31,481 nt of DNA from a virus: positions 1 to 31,481 of the IMG/VR virus record IMGVR_UViG_3300045988_080512; one strand, written 5' to 3'. Each line of letters opens with the position of its first letter. Position 1 is the first letter of the stretch. Shown here piece after piece: positions 1-31,217 of this stretch. The translations under genes were made by a program, and so were the position numbers. The notes below the pieces were generated by a model. That model did no database searches. It was not told where the DNA came from and was given only the letters and a program-made list of their open reading frames with translations.

Positions 1-11
1 AAATTACTATT

Positions 12-1730
12 ATGAAAACTTATTTAAATAATTTAATCAATGAATTACCTACTAACTGCTTATTTGACAAAGGTAAAGTAGGATGTGGTGGAACTTCAAT
101 GGCTTTAGAGTGTGATAAGCCTTATGTTATATGTGTTCCATTTGTAAGCTTAGTTGAGAATAAACTTGCTCAATATCCTAATGAAAGACGTAAAGAGCCT
201 ATTTTTGGAGTTTATCAAGGTATTACTAAGACAGACATTGAAGCTTATGTATCTTCAGTTAAATGCCCTAAAATCATTGTTACTTATAATTCTCTTTATA
301 AAGTAATAGAAGCAGTAAATCCTAAAGATTATAGCTTATTAATTGATGAATATCATATACTATTTAATCAATATAGTCTTAGAAGAGATGCAATTAAAGA
401 TGTATTAAAGACATATAGTCTATTTAAAGAATATACATTTATGACTGCAACTCCATTAGAAGATGAATTTGTTTTAGATGAATTGTCTAAACTGCCATTA
501 GTAAGACAAGAATGGGATGATGTTATCGAGACTAAAGTTCAGACTGTCAAATGCAAGAATGTAGAAGCTTCCACAATTAAGCTTATAAATGGATTTTTAA
601 GTGGAAATGTTGAAGGTAATGCTTATATATTTGTTAACTCTGTTGACTTTATAAAGAATCTTATTTTAAAGGCTAAACTTACAGCAGATAACACAAGAGT
701 AGTATATTCTAAGAATAATAGAACTAAACTGCCAATTCAGAATTCTTCAGTAAATGATGAACCTAAGAAGATTAATTTGTTGACTTCTACTGTATTTGAA
801 GGTTCTGATATTTATGATGAAAATGGAAGAATTATTGTAGTTAGTGATTCCTCTAAAGCTCAGACTCTTTTAGATATATCTACTTCAATTCAACAGATTG
901 CTGGTAGAATTAGAAATAGTAAATATTTAAATTGGATTACTCATCTTTATTCAGCCACAAGATATGCAGAGATAGATTATGATACATTTAAAAATAATAC
1001 ATTAAAGAATATTGAAGAAACAAAGATTGCAGTTGAATCATATAATCAGCTTCCAGAAGTAGCTCGTAAGAAGATTACAGACTTTACAAGTGACACATAT
1101 ATTCAAATTAATGAGGATTATACCTTTGAATTTGACCCAAATATGGCTAAAGTAGATATATTCAATTTTAAGGTTGCAAGAGGTTTATACTCTGTAAGAG
1201 TTAATCTTACTAATGAATATCTAAAGAATGGCTTTATAAAGGTTGCTGAATGTGAAGATAAATCTATTAAGATAGACCTTGAAGCTCCTAGTAAGTCATT
1301 TCAGGAGCTTATTAAAGATGTAAGAGCTGAATGGGAAACTAAATTTAAAGTTGGAACTCCTATATTAAATGAAGCTCTAATTAAATATCCTTGGTTAAAT
1401 GATGCAATTAATAAACTGGGATTTGAAAGAATGGCAACTTTGGGTTATTGCATTAAAGATATTAAAGAGGAGCTTGTTAAAATATCAGATAAAAATATGC
1501 CAAATAAGGTTGCCAAATTACTTACAAGAGATATTCAGAATGGTATGTTCTACAATTTAGCTTTATTGAAGAATAAGATTGCTGATGTATATAAGACTTT
1601 AGGTATAAAGAAAACTGCAAAGGCAACAGATATTGAACACTATTTTGAAGTTAGAAAATCAACTAAAACTGAAAAGGATGTTAGAAGCAAAGGATACATT
1701 ATTATTAGACCAAGATTCATATTTAAATAG
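12..1730 (+). CDS. SF2 (DExH-type) helicase, early/replication module
   Basis: 572-aa ORF ending in TAG. Helicase motifs are readable: GKVGCGGTS (motif I-like), LLIDEYH (motif II), MTATP (motif III), QQIAGRIRN (motif VI). No in-frame TGA; all 4 Trp are TGG. Confidence 0.7.
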   Translation: MKTYLNNLINELPTNCLFDKGKVGCGGTSMALECDKPYVICVPFVSLVENKLAQYPNERRKEPIFGVYQGITKTDIEAYVSSVKCPKIIVTYNSLYKVIEAVNPKDYSLLIDEYHILFNQYSLRRDAIKDVLKTYSLFKEYTFMTATPLEDEFVLDELSKLPLVRQEWDDVIETKVQTVKCKNVEASTIKLINGFLSGNVEGNAYIFVNSVDFIKNLILKAKLTADNTRVVYSKNNRTKLPIQNSSVNDEPKKINLLTSTVFEGSDIYDENGRIIVVSDSSKAQTLLDISTSIQQIAGRIRNSKYLNWITHLYSATRYAEIDYDTFKNNTLKNIEETKIAVESYNQLPEVARKKITDFTSDTYIQINEDYTFEFDPNMAKVDIFNFKVARGLYSVRVNLTNEYLKNGFIKVAECEDKSIKIDLEAPSKSFQELIKDVRAEWETKFKVGTPILNEALIKYPWLNDAINKLGFERMATLGYCIKDIKEELVKISDKNMPNKVAKLLTRDIQNGMFYNLALLKNKIADVYKTLGIKKTAKATDIEHYFEVRKSTKTEKDVRSKGYIIIRPRFIFK

Positions 1731-1890
1731 AATTGCGGATATTAAAGAAACTCTTAAAAAGTCAGAAGATACTATTAAGGAGTTTGATAAGTGAATGAAT
1801 GAATTTAAAGAGAATTCTAAGAAATTAGGAGATATTATAGATAGAGTATTAGCACAAAGAGATTTTACATTTATTTCAAAATTTGATTAA
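1678..1890 (+). CDS. hypothetical small protein (70 aa if TGA=Trp)
   Basis: ATG 1678 overlaps the helicase 3' end in another frame and runs to TAA 1888-1890 through one TGA at 1792-1794 (...EFDKWMNEFKEN...). Under the standard code only a 31-aa ORF from ATG 1795 remains. Start choice is uncertain. Confidence 0.35.
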
Positions 1891-2172: not shown

Positions 2173-2199
2173 AAAAGGAGGGTTATTTGCCCTCCTTTT
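2173..2199. terminator. bidirectional rho-independent terminator at the convergent junction
   Basis: Perfect 10-bp stem AAAAGGAGGG / CCCTCCTTTT with loop TTATTTG. A T-run follows on the plus strand (CTTTTTTATT) and an A-run precedes it, which is a T-run on the minus strand. It sits between the last plus-strand ORF (ends 2169) and the end of the minus-strand HNH gene, whose last codons it overlaps. Confidence 0.65.
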
Positions 2200-2521
2200 C
2201 TTTTTTATTAAACCTTTGATAATTACTTACTGCCGAATGTATAGCTTTATGACATACTGAACATAATGTTATCAAATCTTCCAAATGGTCTTGCTCCTCA
2301 TATAAATTGTCATACCTCTTATGATGTACCGATAATGACCTGTTTCCGCCTTCCTCAACGCATCAATTACAAGTTTGGCAGTGGTAGTTATCCCGCAACA
2401 AAACTTGCTCTCTAATCGCCTTAAATTCCTTTGAGCGGATATATCTCTGGTACTTTAAATATTCTTCACTTCTTACTTTCCTCTTAGTCTTATGAAGCAA
2501 TTTACTTGATTTGGAATCCAT
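2183..2521 (-). CDS. HNH endonuclease (112 aa), last gene of the minus-strand block
   Basis: ATG 2519-2521 lies 2 nt after the endolysin TAA; the gene ends at TAA 2183-2185. Motifs: CQTCN-TGA-C ... SVHHKRYDNLYEEQDHLEDLITLCSVCHKAIH (Cys box plus HH...CxxCH). One in-frame TGA at 2363-2365. Absent from the supplied track because TGA splits it. Confidence 0.7.
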
Positions 2522-2523: not shown

Positions 2524-2976
2524 TTATATAATAGTAAATTTCTGTCGTCTTTGCATTCCGTCTTTATTCTTTAATCCCAAGTGTATTCAACTTGCTATAC
2601 CATTCTTAGGCTTTTCATATATCAACTGGTCTCAATTTAATTCTTCAATAGCTTCAGCAATCCAACTTTGGAATACTTTCATATTACCATTAATTGGAGA
2701 TATATCTGCTGCATACCCTGTTAAATGAGCAGAAGTTGAAGATCCTCCCACTGCTTTATTAAGCTCCTTATTCCTAAAACCAGAGGAAATCCTGATGCCT
2801 GCATTGCCAAGCTGATTGTCATCACAATACTTTGCCCATCTCTCTCTTATTGGGTCTAAAAGCTTCTCGACCAACTCTATCAGGTGCTCTGTTATACTCT
2901 CATCTGGAGTGTTATTTATATGCTTAATTGAAGCAGTATCAGATCTTGTTAATTCTTCGAGTGTGAAATACTTCAT
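2524..2976 (-). CDS. endolysin, LAS/M15-family zinc peptidoglycan peptidase (150 aa)
   Basis: Track ORF 2632..2976 extended through TGAs at 2632 and 2587 to TAA 2524-2526. Zinc motif SAHLTGYAAD (Hx6D) lies in the listed part. The third ligand His is in ...NWDQLIYEKPKNGIASWIHLG..., downstream of both TGAs. Confidence 0.85.
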
Positions 2977-3134
2977 TATTTATATGAATTATGCAGTTTA
3001 TAAAGATAAATAAAATAGCACACTGCTCCAAATAACGTTAAACTAATAGTAATCCAAAAAGGAATTACTTTAATTAACAAAAATGCAATCATTAATAGTA
3101 CAACTACTATTACATATTTTAACCAATATTTCAT
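2976..3134 (-). CDS. holin-like small membrane protein (52 aa)
   Basis: MKYWLKYVIVVVLLMIAFLLIKVIPFWITISLTLFGAVCYFIYLYKLHNSYK has two hydrophobic segments. Its TAA overlaps the endolysin ATG by 1 nt (TAATG). Its ATG lies 1 nt after the upstream TAA. Too short for the track; function is inferred from position and topology only. Confidence 0.5.
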   Translation of the reverse strand: MKYWLKYVIVVVLLMIAFLLIKVIPFWITISLTLFGAVCYFIYLYKLHNSYK

Positions 3135-3135: not shown

Positions 3136-3792
3136 TTATATCTTATTTAAAATTATACTTATCTGTATTCCAACTCTTCTTAGATGTACTCAAGTATCAT
3201 AAGGCATAGGTGTATCACAGAATGATAAACCTAAAATACCTATATCTTTATCCTCAGTTTTTAAATAAAATACTGCCACTTCATTTACTCTGTTAGACTT
3301 AAATGCGTAATATAATCTTGGGTCATCTGCTTCTAAACTATCTATATTACCATACCATCCATCATTCTTAGAAAACTCTATAATTGAGGTATAATCAGAT
3401 AATAAGAAATCTTTATAATGGCTACTTACAGGTCTTATTCCTGGCTTTACTTCCTCTGCATTCATTACTCCATAAGTAAATGGAAGTCCTCCTAATCCAG
3501 TAGTTCCATTATGATATTCAATAACTCAAGCTCTATCAGCATTCGTACTTTGAAGCAATTCTTTAAGCTTATATTTAATCTTTAAAGTTGCTTCATTTCT
3601 TGCAATAGTTTTAGTATTATGAGTCTGTTCAATATAGGTTACAACCTTATTATAAACAATAGATGGATTAAGTGTAATAACCATTACATAGGATATAAAT
3701 ATTAATCCAATCCCTGCTTTAAATATCTTTAGTAATCCATATTTATCAACCCATTCTAATACTTTACCAAACCAATTTAATTTATTTTCCAT
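3136..3792 (-). CDS. membrane-anchored hypothetical protein (218 aa)
   Basis: Track ORFs 3526..3810 and 3190..3465 are in the same frame and are joined through TGA 3526 (...NADRAWVIEYHNGTTGLGG...). TGA 3190 is also read through, to TAA 3136-3138. N-terminal TM segment: GIGLIFISYVMVITL. The preferred start, ATG 3790-3792, overlaps the upstream TAA (TAATG); the alternative is ATG 3810. Confidence 0.6.
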
Positions 3793-4217
3793 TACATACT
3801 GTCTTGACATAAACCCAGTGTGTTGTCAACTTGGAAATCAGCTCTAACAAACACTCCGCAGGTAATATCTTTGAACTTTTGATAGAATGGAGTATAAATT
3901 AAAGGATAAGCTATTTCAACTTCTGGATATAGGTTATTAAAACGATTAATTATATTTTGCAGTGCAAGCATACCTGCTGACTGTTCCTCCAATTGGTTGT
4001 TATCAGTCTCATCCCATCTTGATACGAAGTATAGGTTTAAAGAGTAAGTAATAGTATCTTCATCTACACTAAAAGTATTAGGTGTTATATAGAACACATT
4101 ATACTCAATAGTTGGTAAGCTATTTAACTCATAAATATCTTTACTTCCTACAAAATTGATGTTTGGCTCTTCTAATGCACAAGCTTTTAAATTGCTAATT
4201 ATCTCATAGTAGGTCAT
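3792..4217 (-). CDS. hypothetical virion (neck/head-tail joining region) protein
   Basis: 141-aa ORF ending in TAA, with no TGA. Tightly packed after 4220..4909. The call is positional only. Confidence 0.55.
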   Translation of the reverse strand: MTYYEIISNLKACALEEPNINFVGSKDIYELNSLPTIEYNVFYITPNTFSVDEDTITYSLNLYFVSRWDETDNNQLEEQSAGMLALQNIINRFNNLYPEVEIAYPLIYTPFYQKFKDITCGVFVRADFQVDNTLGLCQDSM

Positions 4218-4219: not shown

Positions 4220-4909
4220 TTACTTACTCTTTTTATTATTACTTGAAGGGAAATCATAAGCTCTTTGAAGAGGTCCCTCTCCAGGTTTAATGCTCCATCC
4301 CTTACCTCTTGCTCCACCAAGCCAAATATTGCAAGATGAGCTAGAATAAAGATTGGGAAACATATCCTTTAATGGCTTATATGTATAAAGCTCAGGGAAT
4401 TCATTATAATATGTAATTATAAAGTCCTGTAAACGAGTCTTAAAGAAATCCGCCTTATCTCTATAATACTTCTTAATTTGATTTACTTGACTTGCTTCAG
4501 CAGCAATATCTTTCTCATCATCAGTTCTCATAACTCCAAAATTACCAAGCTTATAAGATATAGGAATTACTATCTCGCTAAGTACTTGATAAAGTAAATA
4601 AGGCTGAACATAATAGTCTAATAGCTCTTTATATCTGTAGTTATCAGAATCATCAATAGAATCACTTGGAAGTGGCTCAGGAGGTTCTATTGGATGAACT
4701 GGAGTATGAGGATCAATCCAATTAATACATTTCTTTTGTAATGCTTCCAATAGCTTAGTACCAATAGTTGACTGAAGTTCTACATCTTGGGCACTTGTGA
4801 TGGCTGCTTGTAAATATTTACCCGATATATTGTTATCTAATGTAGAATTTGACTTTATATAGTCTTCTGAAATAAGCAGTACATTTCTATAGTTAAGTTG
4901 TTCCATCAT
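4220..4909 (-). CDS. hypothetical virion (head completion/connector region) protein
   Basis: 229-aa ORF ending in TAA, with no TGA. Its start overlaps the end of the GIY-YIG gene by 17 nt. The call is positional only. Confidence 0.55.
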   Translation of the reverse strand: MMEQLNYRNVLLISEDYIKSNSTLDNNISGKYLQAAITSAQDVELQSTIGTKLLEALQKKCINWIDPHTPVHPIEPPEPLPSDSIDDSDNYRYKELLDYYVQPYLLYQVLSEIVIPISYKLGNFGVMRTDDEKDIAAEASQVNQIKKYYRDKADFFKTRLQDFIITYYNEFPELYTYKPLKDMFPNLYSSSSCNIWLGGARGKGWSIKPGEGPLQRAYDFPSSNNKKSK

Positions 4910-5501
4910 AAATAAATTTATTGTTTTTATAAGGTCTATTTTCTTTTAAAGCTAAATATAATCCAGAACGTTCTCCATTAACTGATTTAACAGCTTCTTT
5001 CATTGAATTATATCTTGCAATAAAATTCCCATTCATATCAAATCTTAATATAGGCTTAACTCTAGTAATTCGTCCTTTGGAAGCATTTCCAATTTTAATA
5101 AGTGTTTCCAAAGTATAGATTCCTTTCTTTCCTTTATTCCAGGGTGTTTTACCTTTTTTAGAATTTGACATTTTTGCTCTACTCTCATTAGAAAAAGAAT
5201 ACCCGTATGTACCTTCTCCTCCTGATGTTATATTGTAACCATTTTCAGGAGTATTTGTTTTATATTTATGTATCAATATCCTTTCTAATGTCTTAGCACA
5301 AGCTTCTGGTAAATTATCTTTAATTATGATATGTTCAAATCCATCTCAGCTATATTTTTGTATCGCTTTATAAAAGTAAGCTTGAGTAGAGTATCCATAT
5401 CCATTTTTTCACCTAGCTTGCACACTTTGTCCAGTAATGCCAAAATATAGCTTATTGTTATACTTATTTATATGGCAATAAACAGTATAATTATTCAACA
5501 T
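4893..5501 (-). CDS. GIY-YIG homing endonuclease with NUMOD3-like and C-terminal DNA-binding region (202 aa)
   Basis: Track ORF 4893..5276 extended upstream through TGAs at 5346 and 5409 to ATG 5499-5501. N-terminus: MLNNYTVYCHINKYNNKLYFGITGQSVQAR-W-KNGYGYSTQAYFYKAIQKYS-W-DGFEH, giving the GIY...YxG...RW...KYxWxxF pattern. GKTPWNKGK is NUMOD3-like. Confidence 0.85.
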
Positions 5502-6582
5502 TTTGTTTGCTATCTTCTTGTCCATTTGGAGTTAAGCTAAAAGGAGTTATAGTTATTGAACCTTTCATTCCAAATATCTTATCAAATGTATCTACTATTT
5601 CGACCTGAATTGGTCTAACTACTGTACGATTATAAAGTTTAAAAGCTTCATTAAATTCTTGTTCGTTGAATCCACTTGAGTAGTTAAGGCCAAAAAGTAC
5701 ACTATTAGCTCTAAATGCGCAGAATATCTGTTCTCTTGTCCTATCAGATAAAGCACTATATTTCTCATCAAAATCATCAGAGTCTAAACGCTCAATAGTA
5801 GTCTTATTTGTTTCATCATCATTATATGAAATAAGAACTCTGCCAGCATTTTGAAATCCTGAGAATTTCTCATTAATATTCATCTCAATCTCTTCTTTAA
5901 CTTCATCTGTAGGCTGTCCATTATTAAAGTTAATGATAAGATTACCCATAAATCCATTATGAAGAGAATTTAGATGGAACTCATTAATATTCTTCTCAGT
6001 TTCGCAAGATAAGATAGCTGCACCATAAACAGGGACTGGATATACTTTTCTTGTTATATAGCCCTTATTATAAACAACGCTTGTAGGATTATTATCTGAA
6101 TAATTAAATTTTGGATATTTGATAGCTTTAATAGACCAAGCAGACCAATCATCAGCATAATAGAATACTTCATTTTTTTCATCAGAACGAATCTTCATAA
6201 AGTCAAGATGATATATTTCTGAAACTCTACCTACCATATCTCTAATTACTTGGATAGCATAACCTCCAAATATCATCTTATCTTTAGATACTTTACGCAT
6301 AATATCCATAATAGTTTCACCTTTCTTATTTACAGTTACTTCAAATCCTGGTGCATTACATATAACATCATTACCAACAATAAAGTCAGCAGTCCCATTA
6401 ATGATAGATTGAAGAGTAGCTACATTTAAGTATAAATCCCATAGATATAATGGATAGCGATTATCTTCACCCCAAGAAATCCAATCAGAACCCCTTTTTC
6501 TCGATTCTACAGGAAGTACTAAATTTGACACTACAACAGGATCAATTGCACTTAATTGTACTTTTGTTTTATTTTCGCTCAT
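5491..6582 (-). CDS. portal protein (HK97/Phage_portal-type, 363 aa)
   Basis: Translation has the portal-family layout (SDWISWGEDNRYPLYLWDLY..., ...YPVPVYGAAI..., ...FSGFQNAGRVLISY..., ...REQIFCAFRANSVLFG...). The preferred start, MSENK at 6580-6582, is 14 nt inside the upstream gene. The track start 6639 would overlap far more. No TGA. Confidence 0.75.
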   Translation of the reverse strand: MSENKTKVQLSAIDPVVVSNLVLPVESRKRGSDWISWGEDNRYPLYLWDLYLNVATLQSIINGTADFIVGNDVICNAPGFEVTVNKKGETIMDIMRKVSKDKMIFGGYAIQVIRDMVGRVSEIYHLDFMKIRSDEKNEVFYYADDWSAWSIKAIKYPKFNYSDNNPTSVVYNKGYITRKVYPVPVYGAAILSCETEKNINEFHLNSLHNGFMGNLIINFNNGQPTDEVKEEIEMNINEKFSGFQNAGRVLISYNDDETNKTTIERLDSDDFDEKYSALSDRTREQIFCAFRANSVLFGLNYSSGFNEQEFNEAFKLYNRTVVRPIQVEIVDTFDKIFGMKGSITITPFSLTPNGQEDSKQNVE

Positions 6583-7114: not shown

Positions 7115-8086
7115 TTAGTTTGAACTTGCTAAAGTTCAGTTTTTAGATGTGGCTAATGATTTCTGTTCCTCAGTAAGTGCATTATAAACGTTAGTATAAA
7201 AAGTTAAAGTTTTGGTATCCTTTCCAGTTAAATCACTAACATTTGTAATAATATCAGTTACTGATTGACTATTTAGTGCTCTAAAATTTGCTAAATTCAT
7301 ACTTTTATCAGCTCCTTCAACACCCCCAAAATAAGTAACAGTAGTATTAGCAGATGCACATATTGAAATTTTATTTAGATCTTCTGTTAATGTGCAATTA
7401 TTTAATTTAATTTTTCCTACTGTTGTAACACCCTCATTATATGAACTAAAGTAATAATATAAAGATAGTTGTCCATTAATAACTTCAATTTCAGGAACAT
7501 TACTGCTAACAGAATAAAAGAAAAATTGTAAAGATGATACACCAGTATCAACTTCATTTATCACTTTTAAAGTAGTTGGTAAATTAGAAGCATTAAAGAA
7601 TGTTCTTGTTGCATAATTTCAACTAGAGGATGTGGTATTAATTAATTCTAAATTATTTAGTATGCCTTGAAATCCAGAAAATGCGTACGAATCCCCAACA
7701 CTAGTTCTTATATTATCAATATATATATTATATGTGTTTTGGAAGGCATATGATGCGTCATATACTTTAGACAGATCAATATGACTTGATATATCTATTG
7801 TAGATATGAAATTAGTCCCATCAAATCAATGATTTATATTATCTGGAAGAGAATATTCTATATTATTATATTGCTCTTGTGTCATACTAGAATATGCAAA
7901 TGTTAATCCATAATCATTTAAATTAATCTTTCCTCCACCACCTCCAGAAATCTGTCCTATCTTATCTGCATAGCTTCTAAAGGTATCGGAATCTGATACA
8001 GCAACACCTTTAGCTACAATAGCATCTTTAATGGCACTCTTAGTACCTTCAAGATACGTTAATTTATCAGAAATTGTATTTGCCAT
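7115..8086 (-). CDS. LRR/DUF285-like receptor-binding (tail fiber/spike) protein, paralog 3 (323 aa)
   Basis: Track ORFs 7826..8086 and 7136..7564 are in the same frame. They are joined through TGAs 7826 and 7619, and TGA 7136 is read through to TAA 7115-7117. N-terminus: MANTISDKLTYLEGTKSAIKDAIVAKGVAVSDSDTFRSYADKI. C-terminus ...KTLTFYTNVYNALTEEQKSLATSKN-W-TLASSN is homologous to ...KTLTLGATNLAKLSDEQKAIATNKNWILA of 13227..14180. Confidence 0.75.
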
Positions 8087-8087: not shown

Positions 8088-8609
8088 TTAGATATATTTA
8101 AATTTTACCCCTTTATAAGTGTCTGTTCTTCCTTTAAGACAATCTATAACTCTACTATGAGTATACCCATCTATTGATGTTTCAATTGCATTTTTATATG
8201 TTTTAACTAGTAAATCATTAATAAATAGCCCTACAGGTTTACTAATTTTATCAATACATCTATTTATTCTAGTTCCATATGTATTATTATACTTTGCATC
8301 ACATCATTCTAAATTTTCTACCCTATTATCTGTCTTATTTTCATTTATATGGTTAACATATGGTAGATTGTCAGGATTTGGAATAAATGCTTCTGCTACT
8401 AGTCTGTGAACTTTAATAGCTTTAGGTTTATCTAAGCCAGATACTAGAATTACATAATTATAGCCATATTTATCTATATGCTGTTTTAGCTTTTTATGTA
8501 TTTGTTTTCTGGTTCTTCCAATAGAATCTTTAAAAGTCAATGGGTTACTATATACATCTCCTGTAGAAGATACACTATAGTTAGGATAATTTGTTAATAC
8601 TCTATTCAT
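8088..8609 (-). CDS. HNH homing endonuclease (173 aa)
   Basis: Track ORF 8304..8636 extended through TGA 8304 to TAA 8088-8090. Motif: ...[31 protein letters not shown]... (classic NHIdgnktnNrveNLEW). The preferred start, MNRV at 8607-8609, lies just upstream of the preceding gene's TAG. Confidence 0.85.
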
Positions 8610-9234
8610 TTGGAATTTCACCATTAATTGTATCAAGAGTAGTTGAGATAGTTCCGATTTGTGCCTGTAAAGCTTGAATAGCAGCTTCTAATTCTGAAAC
8701 CTTAGCATTATATACTTCTAATGTTACATAATTAGATAGTTCCGATTTGTCTGCTTTATTTGCATCTAATGTCCCAACTTCCTTATCTAATGCATCAATC
8801 TTTAGTCCATCCTCTTCTTGCTTACTTTCAACAGATGCAAGCTCTTCTTTAGTAGCAAAATCCTCAGTACTTGGAATATCTGACTTGAGAGCATAGTTAG
8901 AAAGATCAATAGATAGATGTAAATCCTCACCCTCTCTATTAAATGACATAGGAGAGTTTACTTGAAATACTTCCATCTTAGATGTTTCTAATTCAGTAAT
9001 ATCATTCTTAATTGGCTCTAACTTAGGTTCAAGTATAACATCCAACTGAGAATTGATTTGCTCATCAATTATTTCAACAGCCTTATCTTCAGAAATGTAA
9101 TTACCTTTAGGTTGAAATCTTTCATCTGCTTCAATCTTAGTATAAGAACCAACAGGAAGCTGAGCTGTCTCAATACCACATTTCTTACTAACATAGAAGG
9201 TCTGAGTATTCTTAGTATTCTTTAATATAATCAT
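8602..9234 (-). CDS. coiled-coil tail fiber protein (210 aa)
   Basis: ORF ending in TAG. It shares segments with the large fiber (YALKSDIP..., [15 protein letters not shown] vs KQEEDGDKIDSLDKE). C-terminal heptad-like stretch: [33 protein letters not shown]. Confidence 0.65.
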
Positions 9235-10391: not shown

Positions 10392-13004
10392 CTATTCTAC
10401 AATTAAATATTGAGTATTTGGATCTTTACTTGAAATAGCATCATATTCAGACTGAGTTACCACAAGAATAGTATGAACTTGTGGTTGAGTTCCACTTCCA
10501 TAAGTAACTGGATTAGAAACACTCTCAATATCTATATTTCCACTACCTAACAAGCTTTCTCCATTAACTGTCTTGATATTTGTTCCGCTAACTAAAGAGT
10601 CTTGTTTATTTCCTAATCCCGCATTTAATTCAGTTTCTGTAACATATTCATCAGGAATAGAAGTTAAAAAGCCACTATCGTTAGTAAGCTCAGATGTCTT
10701 AGTTGGTATACCTAAATCCTCAAGACTCTTATTACCACTAAGTTCAACAGAATTAATCTGAGGTTTATTTGTTAACTGAGTATAGTCAGTAGTCCCTCCA
10801 CCTCCAGATATTTCAAGATTACCTTCTCCTAAAATACTTTCACCATTAATAGTCTTTATATTAGTACCAGAAACTAGTTGCTCTTGATAACTATGATAAC
10901 TAGTATCTGCTGATACTCCAGTTGGAGTAATAGTAGTTTGAACTACAGTATGATTAGCTGTAGTACTTTCAAAATGGAAAGTAGCTTGAATATTTTCTCC
11001 TGAAACAAAACATACTTCTGGAGCTGCTATATCACCATAACCTAGAATATTTACATAATAAAGCTCAAATGGTGTTTTATTAGCTATAGCATTCTTAACA
11101 GCAGCGAAATCTCCAGAAAGATGAGTAGTGGAATTTATAAATAGAAATGGAATATTAGAACCACTTTCAATTTCTATATTACCTTCTCCAAGTAAAGACT
11201 GACTATTGATTGTTTTGATATTAGTTCCACTTACAAGCAAATCTTGCTTAGTAGCCATCTCTTTATCAAGAGAATCAATCTTATCTCCATCTTCTTCTTG
11301 TTTTGTTTTAATAATTGATATATCTGAAGTATTAGTTGCTACTTGAGTAGATAAAGATTCTACTACAGAAGAATCTGCTTTACCTGCAAGTTCTATTTTT
11401 GTTGCATAATCTCCTACAGGCTGTTTAGTAGCAAGCTGCTCATCAACATAAGTCTTATCTGCTTTACCTGCTAAATCTCCAGAAACCTCTGTTTCAGTTA
11501 CAAAGTTAGAATCATTAGTAAGCTCACTAACTTTAGTTGGAATATCACTCTTTAAAGCATAATCTCCTTTATCTTGTTTTGCATCAATCTTACTTTGTAA
11601 AGAAGATCTTAGAGTCTCAATTTCCTCATTAACTGAATCGTTAGTTGCATAATCACCAACTGGTTGGTATCCAGATAAATCTACAGATAACTGAGTCTTA
11701 TCTCCATTAAAAGCTAATGGAGCTTGAGGAGCAAATACTCCTTGTTTTTCCTCAAGTTTGGCATCTACTTCTTCTTTAGTATATCCTTTATTAGTAAGAT
11801 CAACCTCAGTAACTTTAACAGTCATATTACCATTATTTACTAAGATTGCATTAATAACTACTAATACACCATTATCTTGGAAATAATAGCCATATAAATC
11901 AATAGTTTCGGGATGCTCAATAGTTGCAACAGGAATAACTATAATATCACCTTTATATGTAATCTGGCAGAATAAATAGAAGTCCAGATTAGTTCTAATA
12001 AAGTCATAGATATGTTTCTGTCTTACAGGATCATTCTCATCTAAATTAAGTAAGAAATGATTCTCAAAAGCAGAGATTACATTATCTATAATAGATATAT
12101 TCTTTCCTGCTGTAAGCGTTTCCTGTTTTGAAGCTATCTCTTTATTAATAGCTGTATTTAAAGCATCAATTTCAGCTTTGGTATATTTATCTGCTAATTG
12201 TGCATATAGAGGACCATTAACAATACCAGCTTGGTTAGTCTCTGTATTATATATTGGAAGTTCAACTGCTTCTCCAGTTTGATTACCAAATACAGGAGCT
12301 AAAGTAACTTTAGATGGGACTGATTGAATATTAATGGCAGGTACGATTGAAGCTGCTCCAGATAATTCAGTTCCATTTAAAGATGGTTTGTTACGAATAG
12401 TATTATAATCTGCAGAAATAGTATTCTCTTCAATTACTATACCATCACCTTGGTTTAATTTATTCTGTTTAGAATTTAATGCACTTTCAGTAGCTTCTTT
12501 TGTAAGATAATTATCTTCAACTCATTTTTCAGTAGCATATCCATCTAAGCTACTAATAAACCCACTATCATTAGTTAATTGTGAAGTTTTTGTTGGTATC
12601 TCAGATTTATCGGCTTTATTGGCAACTGCATCTGAAATTTCAGTTGTAACCTCTTCTTTAGTTGGATAATCAGCTAATCGTTCAGTTATCTGATTATCAA
12701 TATTTTCAGCACTTGGAATAGTACTCTTTATTTGCTCTAACTCAGAATTAATAGTAACAATATCTTCAGATGACGCTAATCCCAACTCTTCCGAAGTCAT
12801 ATTACCATTTAACTCAATACTATTGATCTCAGGTTTATCCTGAAGATCAAAATAGCTATTAGTAGCTAACTGAGAACCATCCATAACCTTAACTTCATCA
12901 TCCTTGTCAATAACAATAACTTTAGTCACATTTGACTTATCTATTGTTTCGACTTCAAGGATATTAAGATAAGGAAGAATTGTCTTTTCAGTTTCGTTTG
13001 CCAT
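10392..13004 (-). CDS. large tail fiber protein (870 aa)
   Basis: Track ORFs 12522..13004 and 10392..11825 share a frame. The 232 codons between them (11826-12521) contain no stop and no ATG, and the only break is TGA 12522. Ends in TAG. Repeated motifs: NKPxINSxELxGN, TK(T/V)S(E/Q)LTNDS(G/N)F, LVSGTNIKT(I/V)N. Confidence 0.75.
10524..11237 (-). repeat. three in-gene copies of a 24-aa fiber repeat (LVSGTNIKT[IV]N[GS][EQ]S[LI]LG[ES]GN[IL][ED]I)
   Basis: The copies are encoded at 11166..11237, 10806..10877 and 10524..10595 inside the large fiber gene. Read directly from the translation. Confidence 0.7.
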
Positions 13005-14826: not shown

Positions 14827-15729
14827 TTAGGCTTTGGCACCAAGAACTACCTCATCAGGGAATGCAACCTGTACGCCAGCGTTAAATTCAATAGCTAATC
14901 TAAATTCGCGGAAATCTTGTGAATACCACAATTCAAACTTCTCTTCATCGTTCATCATATCGCAACCATAGAAGAAGTTCTTATCTAACTGACCAGCAAC
15001 AATCTTATCAGTTCCATTAAGACCATTAACAGCGATTACTTTAACCTGCGAACCAGGAAGCATAATCTCACCATTAAGATTCTCACCACTATAGTGGTAG
15101 TAGTTCTTAGCAACTAACTCCTGGATAAATTTACGGAAAGTATCACTGCCAACTAAGATAGAAGCACCATCCAGAACCTTCTCAGGAATAGCGTTATAAA
15201 CAGCCATAATGTCATCATAAGCAGATGCTCCAGTAATTGTTACATCAACAACACCATCAGCAGCACCAAGGATCTTTAACAGACCATCAAAATACTTCAG
15301 GTTATTTGTTTCAGAAGTAGTATCACCCTGCCAAATAGCAGTCTCAATAGCAGCCTTAACATTCTCAACTACTGCATTTACGAAATCCTCTTCAAAAGGA
15401 AGCGTCTTCTGACCAGCAGCTACTCGTACTTGATACTGAGTCCAGTATTTAAGCATCTCTTTATCACAATATGCCATATTGATCTTAATATTACCAGTAG
15501 CCAGAATTCTCTGAGAAAGAGTCTGAGTTCCAGCTTCATCCCAACCACAAGCTAGGCCATCGCCAAACTGAATAGCAGTTGATAACAGGTTAAGAGCAGC
15601 ACTAGTTTTGATGTCAGTTTGAAGATTGAACAACGAAGCACTCTTAGCCTTTAATACAGCCTCTTTTATCAATGGAAGCCTGCGCTGTTCTACGTAACTA
15701 GTTAAACTCGTCATTACGGGGTTTGCCAT
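14827..15729 (-). CDS. major capsid protein (HK97-fold type, 300 aa)
   Basis: Follows the protease and scaffold genes. The sequence (MANPVMTSLTSYVEQRRLPLIKEAVLKAKS...FELWYSQDFREFRLAIEFNAGVQVAFPDEVV) has the layout of small HK97-like MCPs. Visibly higher G/C than surroundings. 4 Trp, all TGG; no TGA. Confidence 0.75.
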   Translation of the reverse strand: MANPVMTSLTSYVEQRRLPLIKEAVLKAKSASLFNLQTDIKTSAALNLLSTAIQFGDGLACGWDEAGTQTLSQRILATGNIKINMAYCDKEMLKYWTQYQVRVAAGQKTLPFEEDFVNAVVENVKAAIETAIWQGDTTSETNNLKYFDGLLKILGAADGVVDVTITGASAYDDIMAVYNAIPEKVLDGASILVGSDTFRKFIQELVAKNYYHYSGENLNGEIMLPGSQVKVIAVNGLNGTDKIVAGQLDKNFFYGCDMMNDEEKFELWYSQDFREFRLAIEFNAGVQVAFPDEVVLGAKA

Positions 15730-17006: not shown

Positions 17007-17600
17007 TTAATGTTTAACTCTTTTTATCTTCTTAATCATATTAAGGATCTCTTTTATTTCGTCATATTCATCAGACTTTCTCTCTAAAGTAAATAAACCT
17101 TCAATTGAGAACCCTTTAAACTTACCAGCTTTAATTGCATCTCAAATAACTTGATTATCTACTTTATAAGTGGCAAATAAAGAACCATCAGGAACATCCT
17201 GGAATTCAACTGGAGATATTCCTCTATTAATATCCTTTACATAGATTTCTTGTAGAGTAATTCCATTTAAATCAGAATCTTCTAAATGTTCAATATTTAC
17301 ATCTGTAGTTCTCTTATCATACAGCATCTTCTCTGCCATTTTACGAAGAGTTTCCTTATCATACTGTATGTAGTATTCTCCGAGTTTCTCATCTCGTCTG
17401 AAAATTGGAGTATCACTTAACATTAAGCAAGATGTTACTAAATGCTTATCTTCATCCATCGAGAACTTCTGAGAATTACTAAAAGCAACCCAGTTAACTT
17501 GTGTAGCTGGTTTACTTGTTAAAGCAACATATTCTATTCCATCACAATCATCAGTAATCACTGCCTGAAATAATGGAAGATCATTATAAGTAATTTCCAT
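17007..17600 (-). CDS. XkdF-like putative prohead protease (197 aa)
   Basis: Track ORF 17142..17600 extended through TGA 17142 to TAA 17007-17009. The junction reads ...ATYKVDNQVI-W-DAIKAGKFKGFSIEGLF..., the conserved W..ik.G...GfSieG block of the XkdF family as I recall it. Confidence 0.6.
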
Positions 17601-26774: not shown

Positions 26775-27416
26775 CTATTCAGATAATTCAGCTTCATTTT
26801 TGAGTAAAAGGATTAATCGTCTCGTCTGTATTAAGCTCTTCAGAAGTTTCCTCCTTTCCAGTTTGTCCCTTGTTTTCCTTAGTCTCTTCTTCATCTCCCT
26901 TTCCGAAGAGTGTAGGGTACTCAGCGTTGATACTTGCAATAAGTTTACAAAAAAAAACATTATGTCTGAAAATATATCTATTGTTAGATGAGTATTTAAG
27001 AATTCTGCCTCATCAATAGGGTCATAATCTTCTCCATACTTCTTTCCATTAGGTAGCAAGAAACAAGCTGCTAGATTAGGCATAAAATCATCATACTGCT
27101 TATAAAAATTCTGAAAGTCAATATATTGACTGGCCGTCATCTTATTAACATTAAAAAAGACTTTATATTCCTTATTGCCAATATTATAAGTAGTTTCTGG
27201 GGTTTTTGGCTTATATGGAGTCTCTATAAATTTAAGATTATTTATAAATTCCTGCAGCTTGTTTACTTCCATATTAGTTATATCTTCTATAGGTATATCA
27301 CTAAGTACGGATACCATAGCTAAATTCATATCTAATTCATTTTCCCAGTCTTTTCGTATTATCTCAAACAGTCTTTTATAATGAGATAAATCCATTTCAT
27401 TCCAATTCTTTATCAT
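26775..27416 (-). CDS. hypothetical protein (213 aa) downstream of terL
   Basis: ORF ending in TAG. Its ATG overlaps the terL TAA (TAATG at 27414-27418). No TGA. No family recognised. Confidence 0.55.
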   Translation of the reverse strand: MIKNWNEMDLSHYKRLFEIIRKDWENELDMNLAMVSVLSDIPIEDITNMEVNKLQEFINNLKFIETPYKPKTPETTYNIGNKEYKVFFNVNKMTASQYIDFQNFYKQYDDFMPNLAACFLLPNGKKYGEDYDPIDEAEFLNTHLTIDIFSDIMFFFVNLLQVSTLSTLHSSEREMKKRLRKTRDKLERRKLLKSLIQTRRLILLLKNEAELSE

Positions 27417-28699
27417 TATTTAATTGCAATATTATAAGTTCCTTTATTTGTATTTAAAGCATCATAAGCTAACATTAAAGATATACAAGTATCATCATTA
27501 AATCCAGATGGAGCATTATAACTAACATTTCCAGTCTTTGGATTATAACTGGCTTCATATAGTCTTAATTCATTTAATAGTTTATCATCCTTTAAAATAC
27601 CAATCTTTTCGTTTTCTAATGCCGCTTGTAGCTTATTTACAATAGCTGCCTTAGACTTATTAGTAGTTAAAAACTTAACTATCCGTAATTTAGGATTCCT
27701 TTTTACAAGAATATCATAAAACACTGAACCTATTGAGTTTTGTTCGACTTGAACTATCTTTATAAATCCCTGATACTCAGTAAATATATTTGTCAGTAAA
27801 TCAACTTGTTCTGTTGGAGTTTTGTCGTTAAAATACTTTATAAAGACCATCTGCCCATTTTCATTTAAAGCTGTAATACAAGTATAGTCTTTACCAGAAC
27901 CAGTAGCCCAGTCAACTCCAATATAGAGATTATGATATTCAGGTTTTTTATCAATTATACAGTTAGCTATATTATTAAATAGGCAACCATCATCATCTGC
28001 AAACTCTCCAAGATATTCAGTTCTAAATTTATTTTTGGAGGTTGTAAGGCGATACATTTCAAGTTTATCCTCACTTAACAGCATAGAAGTATCTTCTAAT
28101 GCTCAATCAAAGGATTGATAATATTTACTAAAATTACCATCAAAGCCTTTTTTAAAGCATTCATAAAAGAATCCTTCTCTAAACCTTGGAGTACTAATTA
28201 TAAGTATTGGAGCATTCCATACATCAGCGATAGGTGTTAAAATTTCGTATACTTCATCTGATATATAAGCTGCTTCGTCAATTACTAATATTCCACTAAC
28301 TGTAAATCCTCGTAATGAATCTTTTTGCTCAGCAGATTTAAATAGTATTTCACTCCCATTAGTAAATTCAATCTCAAGCAAAGATTCATTCTTTTTCTTA
28401 ATAATATCTGTGCCATCTAATGCCTTTACTAACTCTTTAAATATCTTTCTGGAGTTAGTAAGAGTTGGTTCAACAATACAGCTAATACTTCCAGGATAGT
28501 TAATTGAAAATCGTAATAGTTCATTTTCTGCCATAAAGGATTTACCACATTGTCTCTTTGCTTTTACAGTAAATATTTTTCCAGACCTATAAGAGTGCTC
28601 TAAAGCAGTATGTACCTTTAATTGATAGATAAATGGGCTATATCCTTTATATATTTTTGTCATTGTTAATTGGATCTCCAAATTTAAACTGGACTTCAT
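27416..28699 (-). CDS. terL: terminase large subunit
   Basis: Track ORFs 28103..28699 and 27416..28084 share a frame and are joined through TGA 28103 (...YYQSFD-W-ALEDTSMLLSEDK...). Walker A: KAKRQCGKS. Walker B: GILVIDEAAY. Nuclease acidic motifs: LYIGVDWATG and GFNDDTCISLMLA. An alternative start, MTKIY at 28661-28663, would give a shorter overlap with terS. Confidence 0.85.
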
Positions 28700-29340: not shown

Positions 29341-29362
29341 TTTTATTTAAAATATATTATTT

Positions 29363-31068: not shown

Positions 31069-31104
31069 AATTTATAAAGTTTAATTGTTAATATTATGTC
31101 TTAC

Positions 31105-31122
31105 TTTCATAGTGCAAATATA
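31105..31122 (-). promoter_or_regulatory. candidate Bacteroidota-type promoter for the minus-strand block (left arm of an 18-bp inverted repeat)
   Basis: The minus strand reads TATATTTGCACTATGAAA. TATATTTG matches the -7 consensus TAnnTTTG. A TTTG lies 20 nt upstream (plus coordinates 31143-31146). The ATG at 31068 is 46 nt downstream. Confidence 0.45.
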
Positions 31123-31189
31123 CAACATTATTTTTAAATCTCCAAATATTTTTGCATTTATTTTTCTTGCATAATTAAAAATTTATTCA

Positions 31190-31207
31190 TATATTTGCAC
31201 TATGAAA
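31190..31207 (+). promoter_or_regulatory. candidate Bacteroidota-type promoter for the plus-strand genes (right arm of the inverted repeat)
   Basis: The plus strand reads TATATTTGCACTATGAAA, identical to the minus-strand reading of 31105-31122. The -33-like element is CTTG, 20 nt upstream. The ATG at 31218 is 20 nt downstream. Confidence 0.45.
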
Positions 31208-31217
31208 ATAATAAACT

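What the first reader, a model, noticed from the sequence alone, without database searches (positions are those of the whole stretch)
2524..2976. Endolysin is catalytically dead unless two TGAs are read through: lysis gated by recoding
Seen in sequence: the standard-code product (114 aa, 2632..2976) contains the Hx6D half of the zinc site (SAHLTGYAAD) but stops before the second His. The extension through TGA 2632 and TGA 2587 adds WDQLIYEKPKNGIASWIHLGLKNKDGMQRRQKFTII, and the His of WIHLG is in the expected position.

Established knowledge: LAS/M15 peptidases coordinate zinc with His, Asp and His.

Inference: active endolysin can be made only when TGA suppression is operating. This fits the published idea that recoding times lytic functions. 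The adjacent 52-aa holin-like gene has no TGA (its 2 Trp are TGG), whereas the 218-aa membrane protein upstream has two.
Basis: partly seen in the sequence, partly recalled or inferred. Interest (0 to 1): 0.7.

Follow-up and report, generated by a model that had tools for sequence, protein, structure and literature searches.

The report
Endolysin gene in TGA-recoded phage
The two "stop" codons inside this phage's cell-wall-cutting enzyme gene are ordinary tryptophan codons, because the whole 31.5-kb gut phage reads TGA as tryptophan; this is a known phenomenon and not a lysis-specific switch, although how this tRNA-less phage gets TGA decoded is still unexplained.

Summary
The minus-strand ORF 2976..2524 has in-frame TGAs at codons 115 and 130. 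The 150-aa read-through product is a complete LAS/Peptidase_M15_3 endolysin. The 114-aa standard-code product lacks three core beta-strands and the invariant W130-x-H132.

TGA is a genome-wide Trp codon here: 44 in-frame TGAs occur in 21 of 41 genes, on both strands, and no gene ends in TGA. In distant relatives that do not use TGA as a sense codon, the aligned residue is mostly Trp. TGA and TGG interchange between related genomes at the same rate as AAA/AAG, GAA/GAG and CAA/CAG.

The endolysin is not enriched in TGA (41% against 36% overall, p=0.35). The holin-like gene has none. TGA avoidance follows expected protein abundance rather than timing: capsid 0/148, scaffold 0/25, against 60-100% in tail fibres and homing endonucleases.

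This is a new member of the known class of stop-codon-recoded gut phages (Borges et al.).

One real puzzle remains. The window is probably a complete circular genome, and neither it nor 88 related loci carry a credible suppressor tRNA. No release-factor or synthetase domain was found either. The host is most likely a standard-code Bacteroidota bacterium.

The parts
2524..2976 (-). Endolysin gene, 150 aa when TGA is read as Trp (LAS / Peptidase_M15_3 zinc peptidase with no signal peptide or TM segment)
   Evidence: translation. PF08291 at 50.5 bits against a cut-off of 23.2; phrog_894 endolysin, E=4e-29 over residues 1-145. AF2 model of the 85%-identical homologue P0006, which has an identical C-terminus, gives pLDDT 95. 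The top Foldseek hit is 1LBU (Zn DD-peptidase, prob 1.0), followed by ChiX, LdcB, VanY and hedgehog N-domains.
2632..2634 (-). In-frame TGA, codon 115, read as Trp
   Evidence: homologues have W, F or Y here. TGA in the 7 relatives that have Trp at this site; other lineages have Phe.
2587..2589 (-). In-frame TGA, codon 130, the invariant Trp of the W-x-H motif
   Evidence: W130 invariant in 28 homologues. TGA in 20/20 close relatives and TGG in distant standard-code relatives L025 and L026.
2704..2727 (-). H84-x6-D91, the first two zinc ligands
   Evidence: aligns to His154...Asp161 of 1LBU (SRHMYGHAAD). H84 and D91 invariant.
2581..2583 (-). H132, the inferred third zinc ligand, present only in the read-through product
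   Evidence: invariant; lies in beta-strand 131-134 of the model. The assignment as a ligand is inferred from the established LAS His/Asp/His site, not measured.
2976..3134 (-). 52-aa holin-like protein with two hydrophobic segments; no TGA
   Evidence: 0 TGA in 22 Trp codons across 11 relatives. No family match, so the holin function is inferred from size, position and hydrophobicity.
3136..3810 (-). 224-aa membrane-anchored protein upstream of the holin-like gene, with in-frame TGA at codons 95 and 207
   Evidence: codon 207 is TGA in 20/20 relatives, while codon 95 is TGA in only 3/20. No Pfam match.
2183..2521 (-). HNH endonuclease gene immediately downstream of the endolysin, with TGA at codon 53
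   Evidence: phrog_119 and phrog_144, HNH endonuclease..
12..1730 (+). 572-aa SF2 helicase-fold protein, the probable replication helicase; TGA-free
   Evidence: AF2 pLDDT 80, with Foldseek hits to DEAD-box, RecQ and Mfd helicases and the HSV-1 origin-binding protein; 0 TGA in 68 Trp codons over 15 relatives.
14827..15729 (-). Major capsid protein; a late gene that is completely TGA-free
   Evidence: phrog_11320, phrog_1623 and phrog_10. 'MAG TPA: Major capsid protein'; 0 TGA in 148 Trp codons over 37 relatives.
27416..28663 (-). Terminase large subunit, with one in-frame TGA aligned to Trp in relatives that do not use TGA as a sense codon
   Evidence: phrog_2, E=9e-37. TGA aligned to W in L038 and L039; corrected start.
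1678..1890 (+). Small + strand ORF with an invariant in-frame TGA at 1792-1794
   Evidence: TGA in 19/19 sequences. The next codon is ATA in 3 of them, so re-initiation there is unlikely.
31069..31217 (.). Divergent intergenic region with 45-nt inverted-repeat arms, each carrying a TAnnTTTG motif (Bacteroidota -7-like)
   Evidence: I2, 31101-31145 / 31167-31211..

Best explanation
The window is a probably complete, circular ~31.5-kb genome of an uncultivated human-gut tailed phage that uses TGA as a tryptophan codon throughout (genetic code 4).

The gene at 2976..2524 encodes an ordinary 150-aa cytoplasmic LAS-family (Peptidase_M15_3) zinc peptidase endolysin. Two of its four Trp codons happen to be TGA. 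Both must be decoded to give the C-terminal three beta-strands and the third zinc ligand (H132), so no active enzyme is made wherever TGA means stop.

That dependence is shared with the terminase, the tail, the tail-fibre and regulatory genes and the homing endonucleases. It is a property of the genome, not of the lysis cassette.

Shown:
- The reading frame, the homology and the LAS fold.
- TGA = Trp.
- Genome-wide use of TGA with synonymous-like turnover.
- No TGA enrichment in the lysis genes.
- Strong TGA avoidance in the proteins expected to be most abundant.
- No credible tRNA gene.

Inferred:
- The host is a standard-code, walled, probably Bacteroidota bacterium.
- TGA is decoded by a suppression-like process that competes with release factor 2 and is less efficient than TGG decoding. 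Selection therefore keeps TGA out of the capsid, scaffold, portal and replication-helicase genes and tolerates it in low-copy proteins such as the endolysin.
- The agent that makes TGA readable is unknown.
For: Frame, family and fold of the endolysin:
- establish the reading frame, the family and the fold.
- W130, H132, H84 and D91 are invariant.
- the 127- and 129-aa database homologues are code-11 truncations at the same TGA.

TGA is a Trp codon across the genome:
- coding ORFs lengthen under code 4 only. There are 41 genes, 21 with TGA, 44 TGA against 75 TGG, and stops are 37 TAA, 4 TAG and 0 TGA.
- opposite TGA in distant relatives that do not use TGA as a sense codon, W 13/24, F or Y 4, G 1.
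- the codon state differs at 14.8% of conserved Trp sites, against 14.5% for Lys, 13.5% for Glu and 14.5% for Gln.
- no +4 context bias and no positional bias of in-frame TGA.

TGA is not concentrated in lysis genes:
- endolysin TGA share is not enriched (p=0.35).
-, TGA share of Trp codons: capsid 0/148, putative structural protein at 14264-14788 1/111, scaffold 0/25, helicase 0/68, holin-like 0/22. By contrast, the two tail-fibre-like genes (7115-8086 and 10392-13004) are at 0.76-0.77 and 0.91-0.96, and the homing endonucleases at 0.4-1.0 (0.6 or more in three of the four families).
- TGA is only 36% of Trp codons although other NNA/NNG pairs are 63-98% A.

No decoding machinery is encoded:
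- no tRNA in the window by ARAGORN or Rfam, even in the two true intergenic gaps and a third stretch later found to be coding, at E<=10.
- no tRNA in 87 of 88 related loci. The one tRNA found is a tRNA-Leu in a distant high-GC relative.
- no release-factor, synthetase or deaminase domain in the 34 proteins scanned with Pfam.

The window is probably a whole genome:
- gene order in relatives runs across the window ends.
- related contigs cluster at 29-33.6 kb.
- a 148-kb contig is a tandem concatemer with a ~29.85-kb period.

The host probably uses the standard code:
- there is no Shine-Dalgarno motif upstream of most genes.
- TAnnTTTG motifs lie in the divergent promoter region.
- the nearest standard-code homologues are in Bacteroides phages, a Bacteroidales-type contractile injection locus and Hymenobacter.
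- a TAG-recoded prophage carrying a helicase homologue is integrated in a standard-code contig.
- (PMC8629427): a screen of more than 250,000 genomes found UGA->Trp only in Mycoplasmatales, Entomoplasmatales and insect endosymbionts.

The phenomenon itself is published: bioRxiv 10.1101/2021.08.26.457843; PMC11210395.
Against: - The host was not identified, so the standard-code host is an inference.
- No decoding agent was found, which leaves the mechanism incomplete.
- Within the endolysin the four Trp codon states are frozen across about 20 relatives: TGG at 47 and 105, TGA at 115 and 130. This could hint at site-specific selection, but 31 of 53 Trp columns genome-wide are equally invariant.
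- The helicase gene is TGA-free, as the published early-versus-late model predicts. That model is therefore not excluded for that one gene.
- The abundance argument rests on assumed, not measured, expression levels.
- H132 as a zinc ligand rests on family knowledge and a model of an 85%-identical homologue, not on coordinates that I could inspect.
Confidence: 0.82

Rival explanations
1. The TGAs in the endolysin are a dedicated timing device. Early in infection translation stops at codon 115 or 130 and gives a dead fragment. Active enzyme appears, and lysis begins, only once a code switch operates.
For: - The truncated product is certainly inactive.
- TGA at codon 130 is conserved in 20/20 relatives.
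- The published model proposes this for Agate and crAss-like phages.
- The helicase gene is TGA-free.
Against: - The endolysin's TGA share equals the genome average (p=0.35).
- The holin-like gene has no TGA.
- A cytoplasmic endolysin does not set lysis timing in canonical holin-endolysin systems (established knowledge).
- Terminase, tail and regulator genes carry TGAs too.
- Both transcription directions contain TGA.
- The late capsid gene is TGA-free in 148 of 148 Trp codons.
- TGA and TGG turn over at the neutral synonymous rate.
Confidence: 0.1
2. There is no code switch. The host itself reads TGA as Trp (native code 4), and the phage simply matches it, as Mycoplasma and Spiroplasma phages do.
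For: - No suppressor tRNA, release factor or synthetase is encoded in a probably complete genome.
- TGA occurs in every transcription unit.
- No gene ends in TGA.
- Most cultured code-4 phages infect code-4 hosts.
Against: - A peptidoglycan hydrolase implies a walled host, whereas the known UGA->Trp bacteria are wall-less Mollicutes or insect endosymbionts (for the taxa; the lack of a wall is established knowledge).
- There are no Shine-Dalgarno sites, which Mollicutes and Firmicutes use.
- TGA is only 36% of Trp codons at 30% GC, and it is nearly absent from the genes for abundant proteins. This is unexpected if a cognate tRNA-UCA were present.
- Relatives of the same capsid and helicase families use the standard code or are TAG-recoded, one of them as a prophage in a standard-code contig.
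Confidence: 0.1
3. The gene is broken or mis-sequenced, or TGA encodes Gly (code 25) or selenocysteine.
For: In-frame TGA is what a nonsense mutation or a Sec codon looks like. Code-25 phages exist.
Against: - The same TGA recurs in more than 20 independent assemblies, with the downstream frame conserved.
- There are 44 such codons in 21 genes.
- The residue aligned to TGA is Trp or another aromatic, and Gly only once in 24.
- No SECIS-type element or Sec machinery was seen, and the site is an invariant Trp in standard-code homologues.
Confidence: 0.01

Closest known systems
[quoted passage not shown]
   Same: [quoted passage not shown]
- TGA aligns to Trp and no gene ends in TGA.
- Close relatives use other codes.
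- The replication gene is free of the recoded codon.
- Like 65-85% of reported code-4 phages, it has no detectable suppressor tRNA.
   Different: - The TGA-recoded lineages analysed or illustrated in that work (Agate and Jade) are large, about 127 kb or more. Garnet, Amethyst and Topaz are small (22-34 kb), and their illustrated representatives and analysed prophages are TAG-recoded. This one is 31.5 kb and TGA-recoded.
- Here the lysis genes are not preferentially recoded.
- The abundant late structural proteins avoid the codon completely.
- Membership of any named clade was not tested.
LAS / MEROPS M15 zinc peptidases: Streptomyces albus Zn DD-peptidase (1LBU), ChiX, LdcB, VanY, and phage M15 endolysins
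   Same: - A Pfam PF08291 match.
- H-x6-D aligned to His154/Asp161 of 1LBU.
- An invariant C-terminal His.
- The top Foldseek hits.
   Different: The second motif is W-x-H rather than the H-x-H recalled for classical LAS enzymes (from memory). The bond cleaved is unknown. There is no cell-wall-binding domain.
Mycoplasma and Spiroplasma phages (code 4 matched to the host)
   Same: TGA = Trp throughout the genome, with no suppressor tRNA needed on the phage.
   Different: Those hosts lack peptidoglycan. This phage carries a peptidoglycan peptidase, lacks Shine-Dalgarno sites, under-uses TGA and has standard-code and TAG-recoded relatives.
TAG-recoded Garnet-type prophages in Prevotella (Borges et al.)
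   Same: Small genome size. Locus L040 shows a TAG-recoded prophage with a 46%-identical helicase homologue and a Phage_int_SAM_5 integrase next to tRNA-Thr in a standard-code contig.
   Different: The recoded codon is different (TAG->Gln). That phage is temperate, whereas no integrase is present in this window.

Membership tests
LAS / Peptidase_M15_3 (PF08291) zinc peptidase | Significant match to the family profile | tested here: met
   50.5 bits against the gathering cut-off of 23.2; phrog_894 endolysin, E=4e-29.
LAS / Peptidase_M15_3 (PF08291) zinc peptidase | First zinc-binding motif, H-x(3-6)-D | tested here: met
   H84-x6-D91 is invariant and aligns to His154...Asp161 of 1LBU.
LAS / Peptidase_M15_3 (PF08291) zinc peptidase | C-terminal His as the third zinc ligand | tested here: met
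   H132 is invariant in 28 homologues and is present only if TGA115 and TGA130 are decoded. The ligand geometry itself was not inspected.
LAS / Peptidase_M15_3 (PF08291) zinc peptidase | LAS fold | tested here: met
   The AF2 model of the 85%-identical P0006 has pLDDT 95. Foldseek gives 1LBU at E=7e-5 and prob 1.0, followed by ChiX, LdcB, VanY and hedgehog.
LAS / Peptidase_M15_3 (PF08291) zinc peptidase | Zinc-dependent peptidoglycan peptidase activity | not testable with these tools
   Needs a zymogram or muropeptide analysis.
Stop-codon-recoded (code 4) phage | In-frame TGA in many conserved genes, with a gain in coding length under code 4 only | tested here: met
   coverage by ORFs of at least 100 aa rises from 0.80 to 0.93; 21 of 41 genes.
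Stop-codon-recoded (code 4) phage | TGA aligns to Trp in standard-code homologues | tested here: met
   W 13/24 and G 1/24. for the endolysin W130.
Stop-codon-recoded (code 4) phage | TGA is not used as a terminator | tested here: met
   37 TAA, 4 TAG, 0 TGA.
Stop-codon-recoded (code 4) phage | Phage-encoded suppressor tRNA(UCA) or other code-change machinery (RF1, TrpRS) | tested here: not met
   tRNA searches; protein domains. The literature reports the same absence for 65-85% of code-4 phages, so this is not an absolute criterion.
Stop-codon-recoded (code 4) phage | The host uses the standard code | not testable with these tools
   Indirect evidence only.
Recoding as a lysis regulator (Borges model) | Lysis genes preferentially use the recoded stop codon relative to the rest of the genome | tested here: not met
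   endolysin 27/66 against 297/844, p=0.35; holin-like gene 0/22.
Recoding as a lysis regulator (Borges model) | Early or replication genes are in standard code and late genes are recoded | tested here: inconclusive
   The helicase is at 0/68. However, the same + strand unit has TGAs in two small ORFs, and the late capsid and scaffold genes and the putative structural gene at 14264-14788 are TGA-free or nearly so.

The most novel reading that the evidence does not exclude
This is a minimal, probably complete 31.5-kb genome of 41 genes. Half of its genes need UGA read as Trp in a standard-code Bacteroidota host, yet it encodes no tRNA, release factor, synthetase or recognisable RNA-modifying enzyme. 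Decoding would then depend on a new tRNA-independent mechanism. One possibility is a small phage protein that disables or retargets release factor 2 so that host tRNA-Trp(CCA) reads UGA. Another is a protein that alters the host tRNA-Trp anticodon. A third is dependence on a co-resident element that supplies a suppressor. The graded avoidance of TGA in abundant proteins would be the signature of such an inefficient, competitive process.
Probability: 0.3. Interest if true: 0.8.

Novelty: new member of a known kind. Interest (0 to 1): 0.33.

Why it matters
The finding as stated adds little. It is a textbook consequence of a phage using genetic code 4, a phenomenon already published. It matters mainly for annotation: many database entries for this endolysin family are 104-129-aa truncations, and some are labelled 'putative chitinase' or 'YcbK'.

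Three points are worth keeping:
- This is an abundant human-gut phage family. Thousands of capsid homologues were found, and genomes are 29-33 kb.
- It is a small TGA-recoded lineage and has no tRNA at all. This narrows the open question of how recoded phages without suppressor tRNAs decode the stop codon to about 40 genes.
- The codon's distribution, absent from capsid, scaffold and helicase genes and rich in fibres and selfish endonucleases, points to decoding cost rather than lysis timing as the force shaping where TGA is tolerated. That qualifies the published regulatory model.

Tried and rejected
- **Hidden suppressor tRNA.** I tried ARAGORN in default, circular, intron and lowered-threshold modes. 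I also ran Rfam on the whole window at E<=1 and on three putative gaps at E<=10. Only noise-level candidates inside coding regions appeared.
- **The 'gap' at 28700-29007.** This turned out to be coding. It holds a TerS-like ORF at 28647-29090 that my first greedy ORF pass dropped.
- **Host flanks from long contigs.** The 193-kb ENA scaffold contains a 100-N join. The 148-kb IMG/VR contig proved to be a tandem concatemer with a ~29.85-kb period. Neither gives a host junction.
- **Host from GTDB genomes.** I found only two distant capsid relatives on short binned contigs, assigned to 'Azospirillum sp. CAG:239' and 'Bacteroidaceae'. This is not decisive.
- **Cultured relatives.** There are none; terminase identity in INPHARED is below 30%.
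- **Sequence-only alignment of the C-terminus to 1LBU or Pfam.** The local alignments stop after the H-x6-D half. The third ligand therefore rests on invariance plus the fold match.
- **Structure prediction of the window's own 150-aa product.** I used the 85%-identical P0006 instead.
- **Context and position of TGA.** I found no +4 nucleotide bias and no positional bias.
- **A standard-code + strand early module.** I abandoned this idea in its strong form after finding invariant TGAs in two small + strand ORFs.
Full report
**Observation.** There is a 114-aa segment ending ...IEELN, then TGA at 2634-2632 (codon 115). Fourteen codons follow, then TGA at 2589-2587 (codon 130), twenty more codons, and TAA at 2526-2524. 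The code-11 ORF list shows 2632..2976 as a 114-aa ORF. The neighbouring claims also hold. The 52-aa ORF 2976..3134 has two TGG and no TGA. The membrane protein 3136..3810 has two in-frame TGAs.

**What the gene encodes.** With TGA read as Trp, the 150-aa product matches Pfam Peptidase_M15_3 at 50.5 bits against a cut-off of 23.2. It also matches PHROG 894 'endolysin' over residues 1-145. Its H84-x6-D91 segment aligns to His154...Asp161 of the Streptomyces albus zinc DD-peptidase 1LBU.

A database search returned 761 homologues. In a 28-sequence alignment of 48-96% identity, H84, D91, E121, W130 and H132 are invariant.

The tool would not accept the Trp-substituted window protein. I therefore modelled P0006, which is 85% identical and has an identical C-terminal 36 residues. 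The model has pLDDT 95. Its core sheet is built from strands 61-65, 89-94, 117-120, 131-134 and 145-148.

Foldseek against the PDB gives 1LBU first (prob 1.0). ChiX, LdcB, VanY and hedgehog N-domains follow, which together make up the LAS fold.

That H132 is the third zinc ligand is inferred from the established His/Asp/His site of LAS enzymes, not measured.

The database homologues of 127 and 129 aa are not natural short forms. The DNA of related contigs continues in frame through a TGA into wIH or wVH. The 104-aa entries stop just before the position of W105, so they may be truncations of the same kind, but I did not check their DNA.

**TGA is a genome-wide Trp codon.** ORF statistics favour code 4 alone. 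Total length of ORFs of at least 100 aa rises from 27 to 38 kb. Coverage by such ORFs rises from 0.80 to 0.93, whereas TAG reassignment gains nothing.

I corrected my first ORF pass in three places. These were a TerS-like gene at 28647-29090, the terminase start at 28663 and two small + strand ORFs. After that the genome has 41 genes. Twenty-one of them contain in-frame TGA. There are 44 TGA against 75 TGG codons, and the stops are 37 TAA, 4 TAG and no TGA.

In distant relatives that do not use TGA as a sense codon, the residue opposite TGA is Trp in 13 of 24 cases. It is Phe or Tyr in 4 and Gly in 1. This excludes code 25.

I then compared the window with 22 loci from ENA and IMG/VR, 20 of them close relatives. 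The codon state differs at 14.8% of conserved Trp positions. The matching figures are 14.5% for Lys AAA/AAG, 13.5% for Glu and 14.5% for Gln. TGA and TGG therefore interchange like ordinary synonymous codons.

In-frame TGAs show no +4 nucleotide bias and no positional bias. The real TAA stops, by contrast, are followed by T in 21 of 35 cases.

**Is lysis specially gated?** It is not. The endolysin family uses TGA for 27 of 66 Trp codons, against 297 of 844 in all other families (Fisher p=0.35). The holin-like gene has 0 of 22.

Within the endolysin the four Trp codons are frozen across relatives: TGG at 47 and 105, TGA at 115 and 130. However, 31 of 53 well-sampled Trp columns in the genome are equally invariant.

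TGA also occurs in many other genes:
- the large terminase;
- the three large tail proteins (10, 5 and 3 TGAs);
- fibre-like proteins;
- the head protease;
- an HTH/sigma-r4-like protein;
- four full-length homing endonucleases;
- two small ORFs on the + strand.

What separates genes is expected abundance:

| Gene | TGA share of Trp codons |
|---|---|
| Major capsid protein | 0/148 |
| 174-aa putative structural protein (14264-14788; function unassigned) | 1/111 |
| Scaffold | 0/25 |
| Portal | 8-14% |
| SF2 helicase | 0/68 |
| Large tail proteins | 0.32-0.41 |
| Endolysin | 0.41 |
| Fibre-like proteins (7115-8086; 10392-13004) | 0.76-0.77; 0.91-0.96 |
| Homing endonucleases | 0.4-1.0 (0.6 or more in three of four families) |

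Overall TGA is 36% of Trp codons, although every other NNA/NNG pair is 63-98% A-ending in this 30%-GC genome. I read this as selection against an inefficiently decoded codon in highly expressed genes. That is an inference, because expression was not measured.

**What the element is.** PHROG and Pfam scans identify the following:
- terminase, portal, XkdF-type protease, capsid and a neck protein;
- BspA-type LRR fibre-like proteins;
- HNH and GIY-YIG endonucleases;
- an HTH protein.

The 572-aa + strand protein has no Pfam match. Its model (pLDDT 80) has an SF2 helicase fold. Hits include DEAD-box, RecQ and Mfd helicases and the HSV-1 origin-binding protein. It is probably the replication helicase.

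In relatives the gene order runs across the window's ends. Related contigs cluster at 29-33.6 kb. A 148-kb IMG/VR contig is a tandem concatemer with a period of about 29.85 kb. The window is thus probably a complete circular genome.

No cultured relative exists in INPHARED; terminase identity is below 30%. The capsid family also contains standard-code members (L038, L078) and TAG-recoded members (L039, L092). In addition, a TAG-recoded prophage carrying a 46%-identical helicase homologue sits next to tRNA-Thr in a standard-code contig.

**Host and decoding.** No tRNA is found in the window by ARAGORN, including circular, intron and relaxed modes. Rfam finds none either, even in two true intergenic gaps and a third stretch later shown to be coding, at E<=10.

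Of 88 related loci, 87 carry no tRNA. The exception is a tRNA-Leu in a distant high-GC relative. No release-factor, synthetase, deaminase or other translation-related domain was detected in the 34 proteins scanned with Pfam. The three largest tail proteins and four endonuclease genes were not scanned with Pfam.

Several lines suggest a standard-code, walled, probably Bacteroidota host:
- Most genes lack any Shine-Dalgarno motif.
- The divergent promoter region carries TAnnTTTG motifs in both arms of a 45-nt inverted repeat.
- The nearest standard-code endolysin homologues are in Bacteroides phages and a Bacteroidales-type contractile injection locus.
- A helicase homologue is chromosomal in Hymenobacter.
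- A screen of more than 250,000 genomes found UGA->Trp only in Mycoplasmatales, Entomoplasmatales and insect endosymbionts (PMC8629427).
- A peptidoglycan peptidase makes no sense against a wall-less host.

None of this identifies the host directly.

**Comparison with what is known.** Stop-codon recoding in gut phages was described by Borges et al. (bioRxiv 10.1101/2021.08.26.457843). They reported in-frame TGA or TAG in structural and lysis genes, the frequent absence of detectable suppressor tRNAs (35% of code-4 genomes have one) and the idea that recoding regulates lysis. Cook et al. found 46 code-4 vOTUs in the UHGV human gut virome catalogue. Across INPHARED and UHGV together, only 15% of the genomes they predicted to use code 4 carried a suppressor tRNA (PMC11210395).

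This phage is a further example. It differs in four ways:
- It is small and TGA-recoded. The TGA-recoded lineages that Borges et al. analysed or illustrated (Agate and Jade) are about 127 kb or larger.
- It shows no lysis-gene bias.
- Its abundant late proteins exclude TGA completely.
- It is tRNA-free in a probably complete genome.

**Verdict.** The claim that the enzyme is dead without TGA decoding is supported. 'Lysis gated by recoding' is not supported as a specific mechanism. The finding is a new member of a known kind and of modest interest. The more interesting residue is the unexplained, apparently tRNA-independent decoding of TGA in a 41-gene genome.

Noticed in passing
window 1678-1890 (+), TGA at 1792-1794: A small + strand ORF just after the helicase gene has an in-frame TGA that is invariant in 19 of 19 related sequences and never TGG. 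Both halves are conserved at the protein level. The codon after the TGA is ATG in 16 sequences and ATA in 3. It could be a plain Trp codon, or a read-through-dependent small protein in the otherwise TGA-poor replication module.
   Followed up: partly
window 31218-31481, continuing into 1-27 (+): A 96-aa ORF containing only a GIY-YIG domain (PF01541, E=4e-9) runs across the window's end and start. It has an internal TGA, and its TGA at 13-15 overlaps the helicase ATG. Relatives that are 99-100% identical on both flanks carry about 300 nt of unrelated sequence here, and others carry a T5orf172/MUG113 gene. This looks like a hotspot for mobile endonuclease insertion.
   Followed up: partly
window 2183-2521, 4893-5525, 8088-8624, 15744-16382 (-), plus 31218-31481: A 31.5-kb genome carries five homing-endonuclease-type genes (two HNH, three GIY-YIG or NUMOD). 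Their presence and position vary between close relatives. Together with the fibre-like genes, they have among the highest TGA shares in the genome: 0.6-1.0 of Trp codons in three families and about 0.4 in the HNH gene at 2183-2521.
   Followed up: partly
window 17644-17702 and 26581-26639: A ~59-nt element (TGTAAC...GTTACA), 80% complementary between its two copies, sits in opposite orientation in two of the few intergenic regions, upstream of the protease gene and upstream of the neck gene. A copy also lies near the divergent region of a relative (L114 9908-9966). Its function is unknown; it could be a promoter, an operator or a recombination site.
   Followed up: no
window 17600-17633, 26510-26543, 29341-29374: A conserved A/T-rich leader (AATAATATATTTTAA[AC]AAAA followed by ATG, read on the gene strand) lies directly upstream of three minus-strand genes. 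It contains no Shine-Dalgarno motif. It may be a shared late promoter or 5'-UTR.
   Followed up: no
window 31101-31145 / 31167-31211: A 45-nt-arm inverted repeat lies between the divergent transcription units. Each arm contains TAtaTTTGCACTATGAAA, which fits the Bacteroidota -7 promoter consensus TAnnTTTG.
   Followed up: partly
L040 (ENA scaffold LEMO22-1_SAMN17215489_METAG-scaffold_71, record 79706-97445): A TAG-recoded prophage is integrated beside tRNA-Thr(CGT), glnA and terC in a standard-code contig of 38% GC. Its terminase has 13 in-frame TAGs and its portal has 3. It also carries a Phage_int_SAM_5 integrase and a 46%-identical homologue of the window's helicase. The same replication module therefore travels with TGA-recoded, TAG-recoded and standard-code phages.
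   Followed up: partly
L078 (IMGVR_UViG_3300029905_000019), L039, L092: Relatives in the capsid family differ in genetic code. L078 (67% capsid identity, 28% GC) appears to use the standard code. L076 and L077 (68% identity) use code 4. L039 and L092 (47-48% identity) look TAG-recoded. This set would be useful for dating the code change.
   Followed up: no
L114, L058 and L112 (IMGVR_UViG_3300045988_175865, 148,631 bp): This 'giant' viral contig is a tandem concatemer of a ~29.85-kb genome, since 2,256 bp are repeated at 100% identity one period apart. The 175-kb and 193-kb contigs that carry the same endolysin are probably similar, and the 193-kb scaffold contains a 100-N join. Contig length in the databases is therefore misleading for this family.
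   Followed up: yes
L001-L004 (ENA contigs of 85-101 kb): A 161-aa homologue of this endolysin (53% identity, standard code) is encoded inside a contractile-injection-system locus (sheath, tube, VgrG-like, PAAR, gp25). The locus is flanked by Mfa-like fimbrial and HU-HIG genes, which is a Bacteroidales-type context.
   Followed up: no
window 28647-29090 against 29008-29340 (-): The TerS-like ORF overlaps the 3' end of the upstream 110-aa ORF by 83 nt in another frame. In relative L027 the homologous upstream ORF was not called. The gene boundaries here are uncertain.
   Followed up: no
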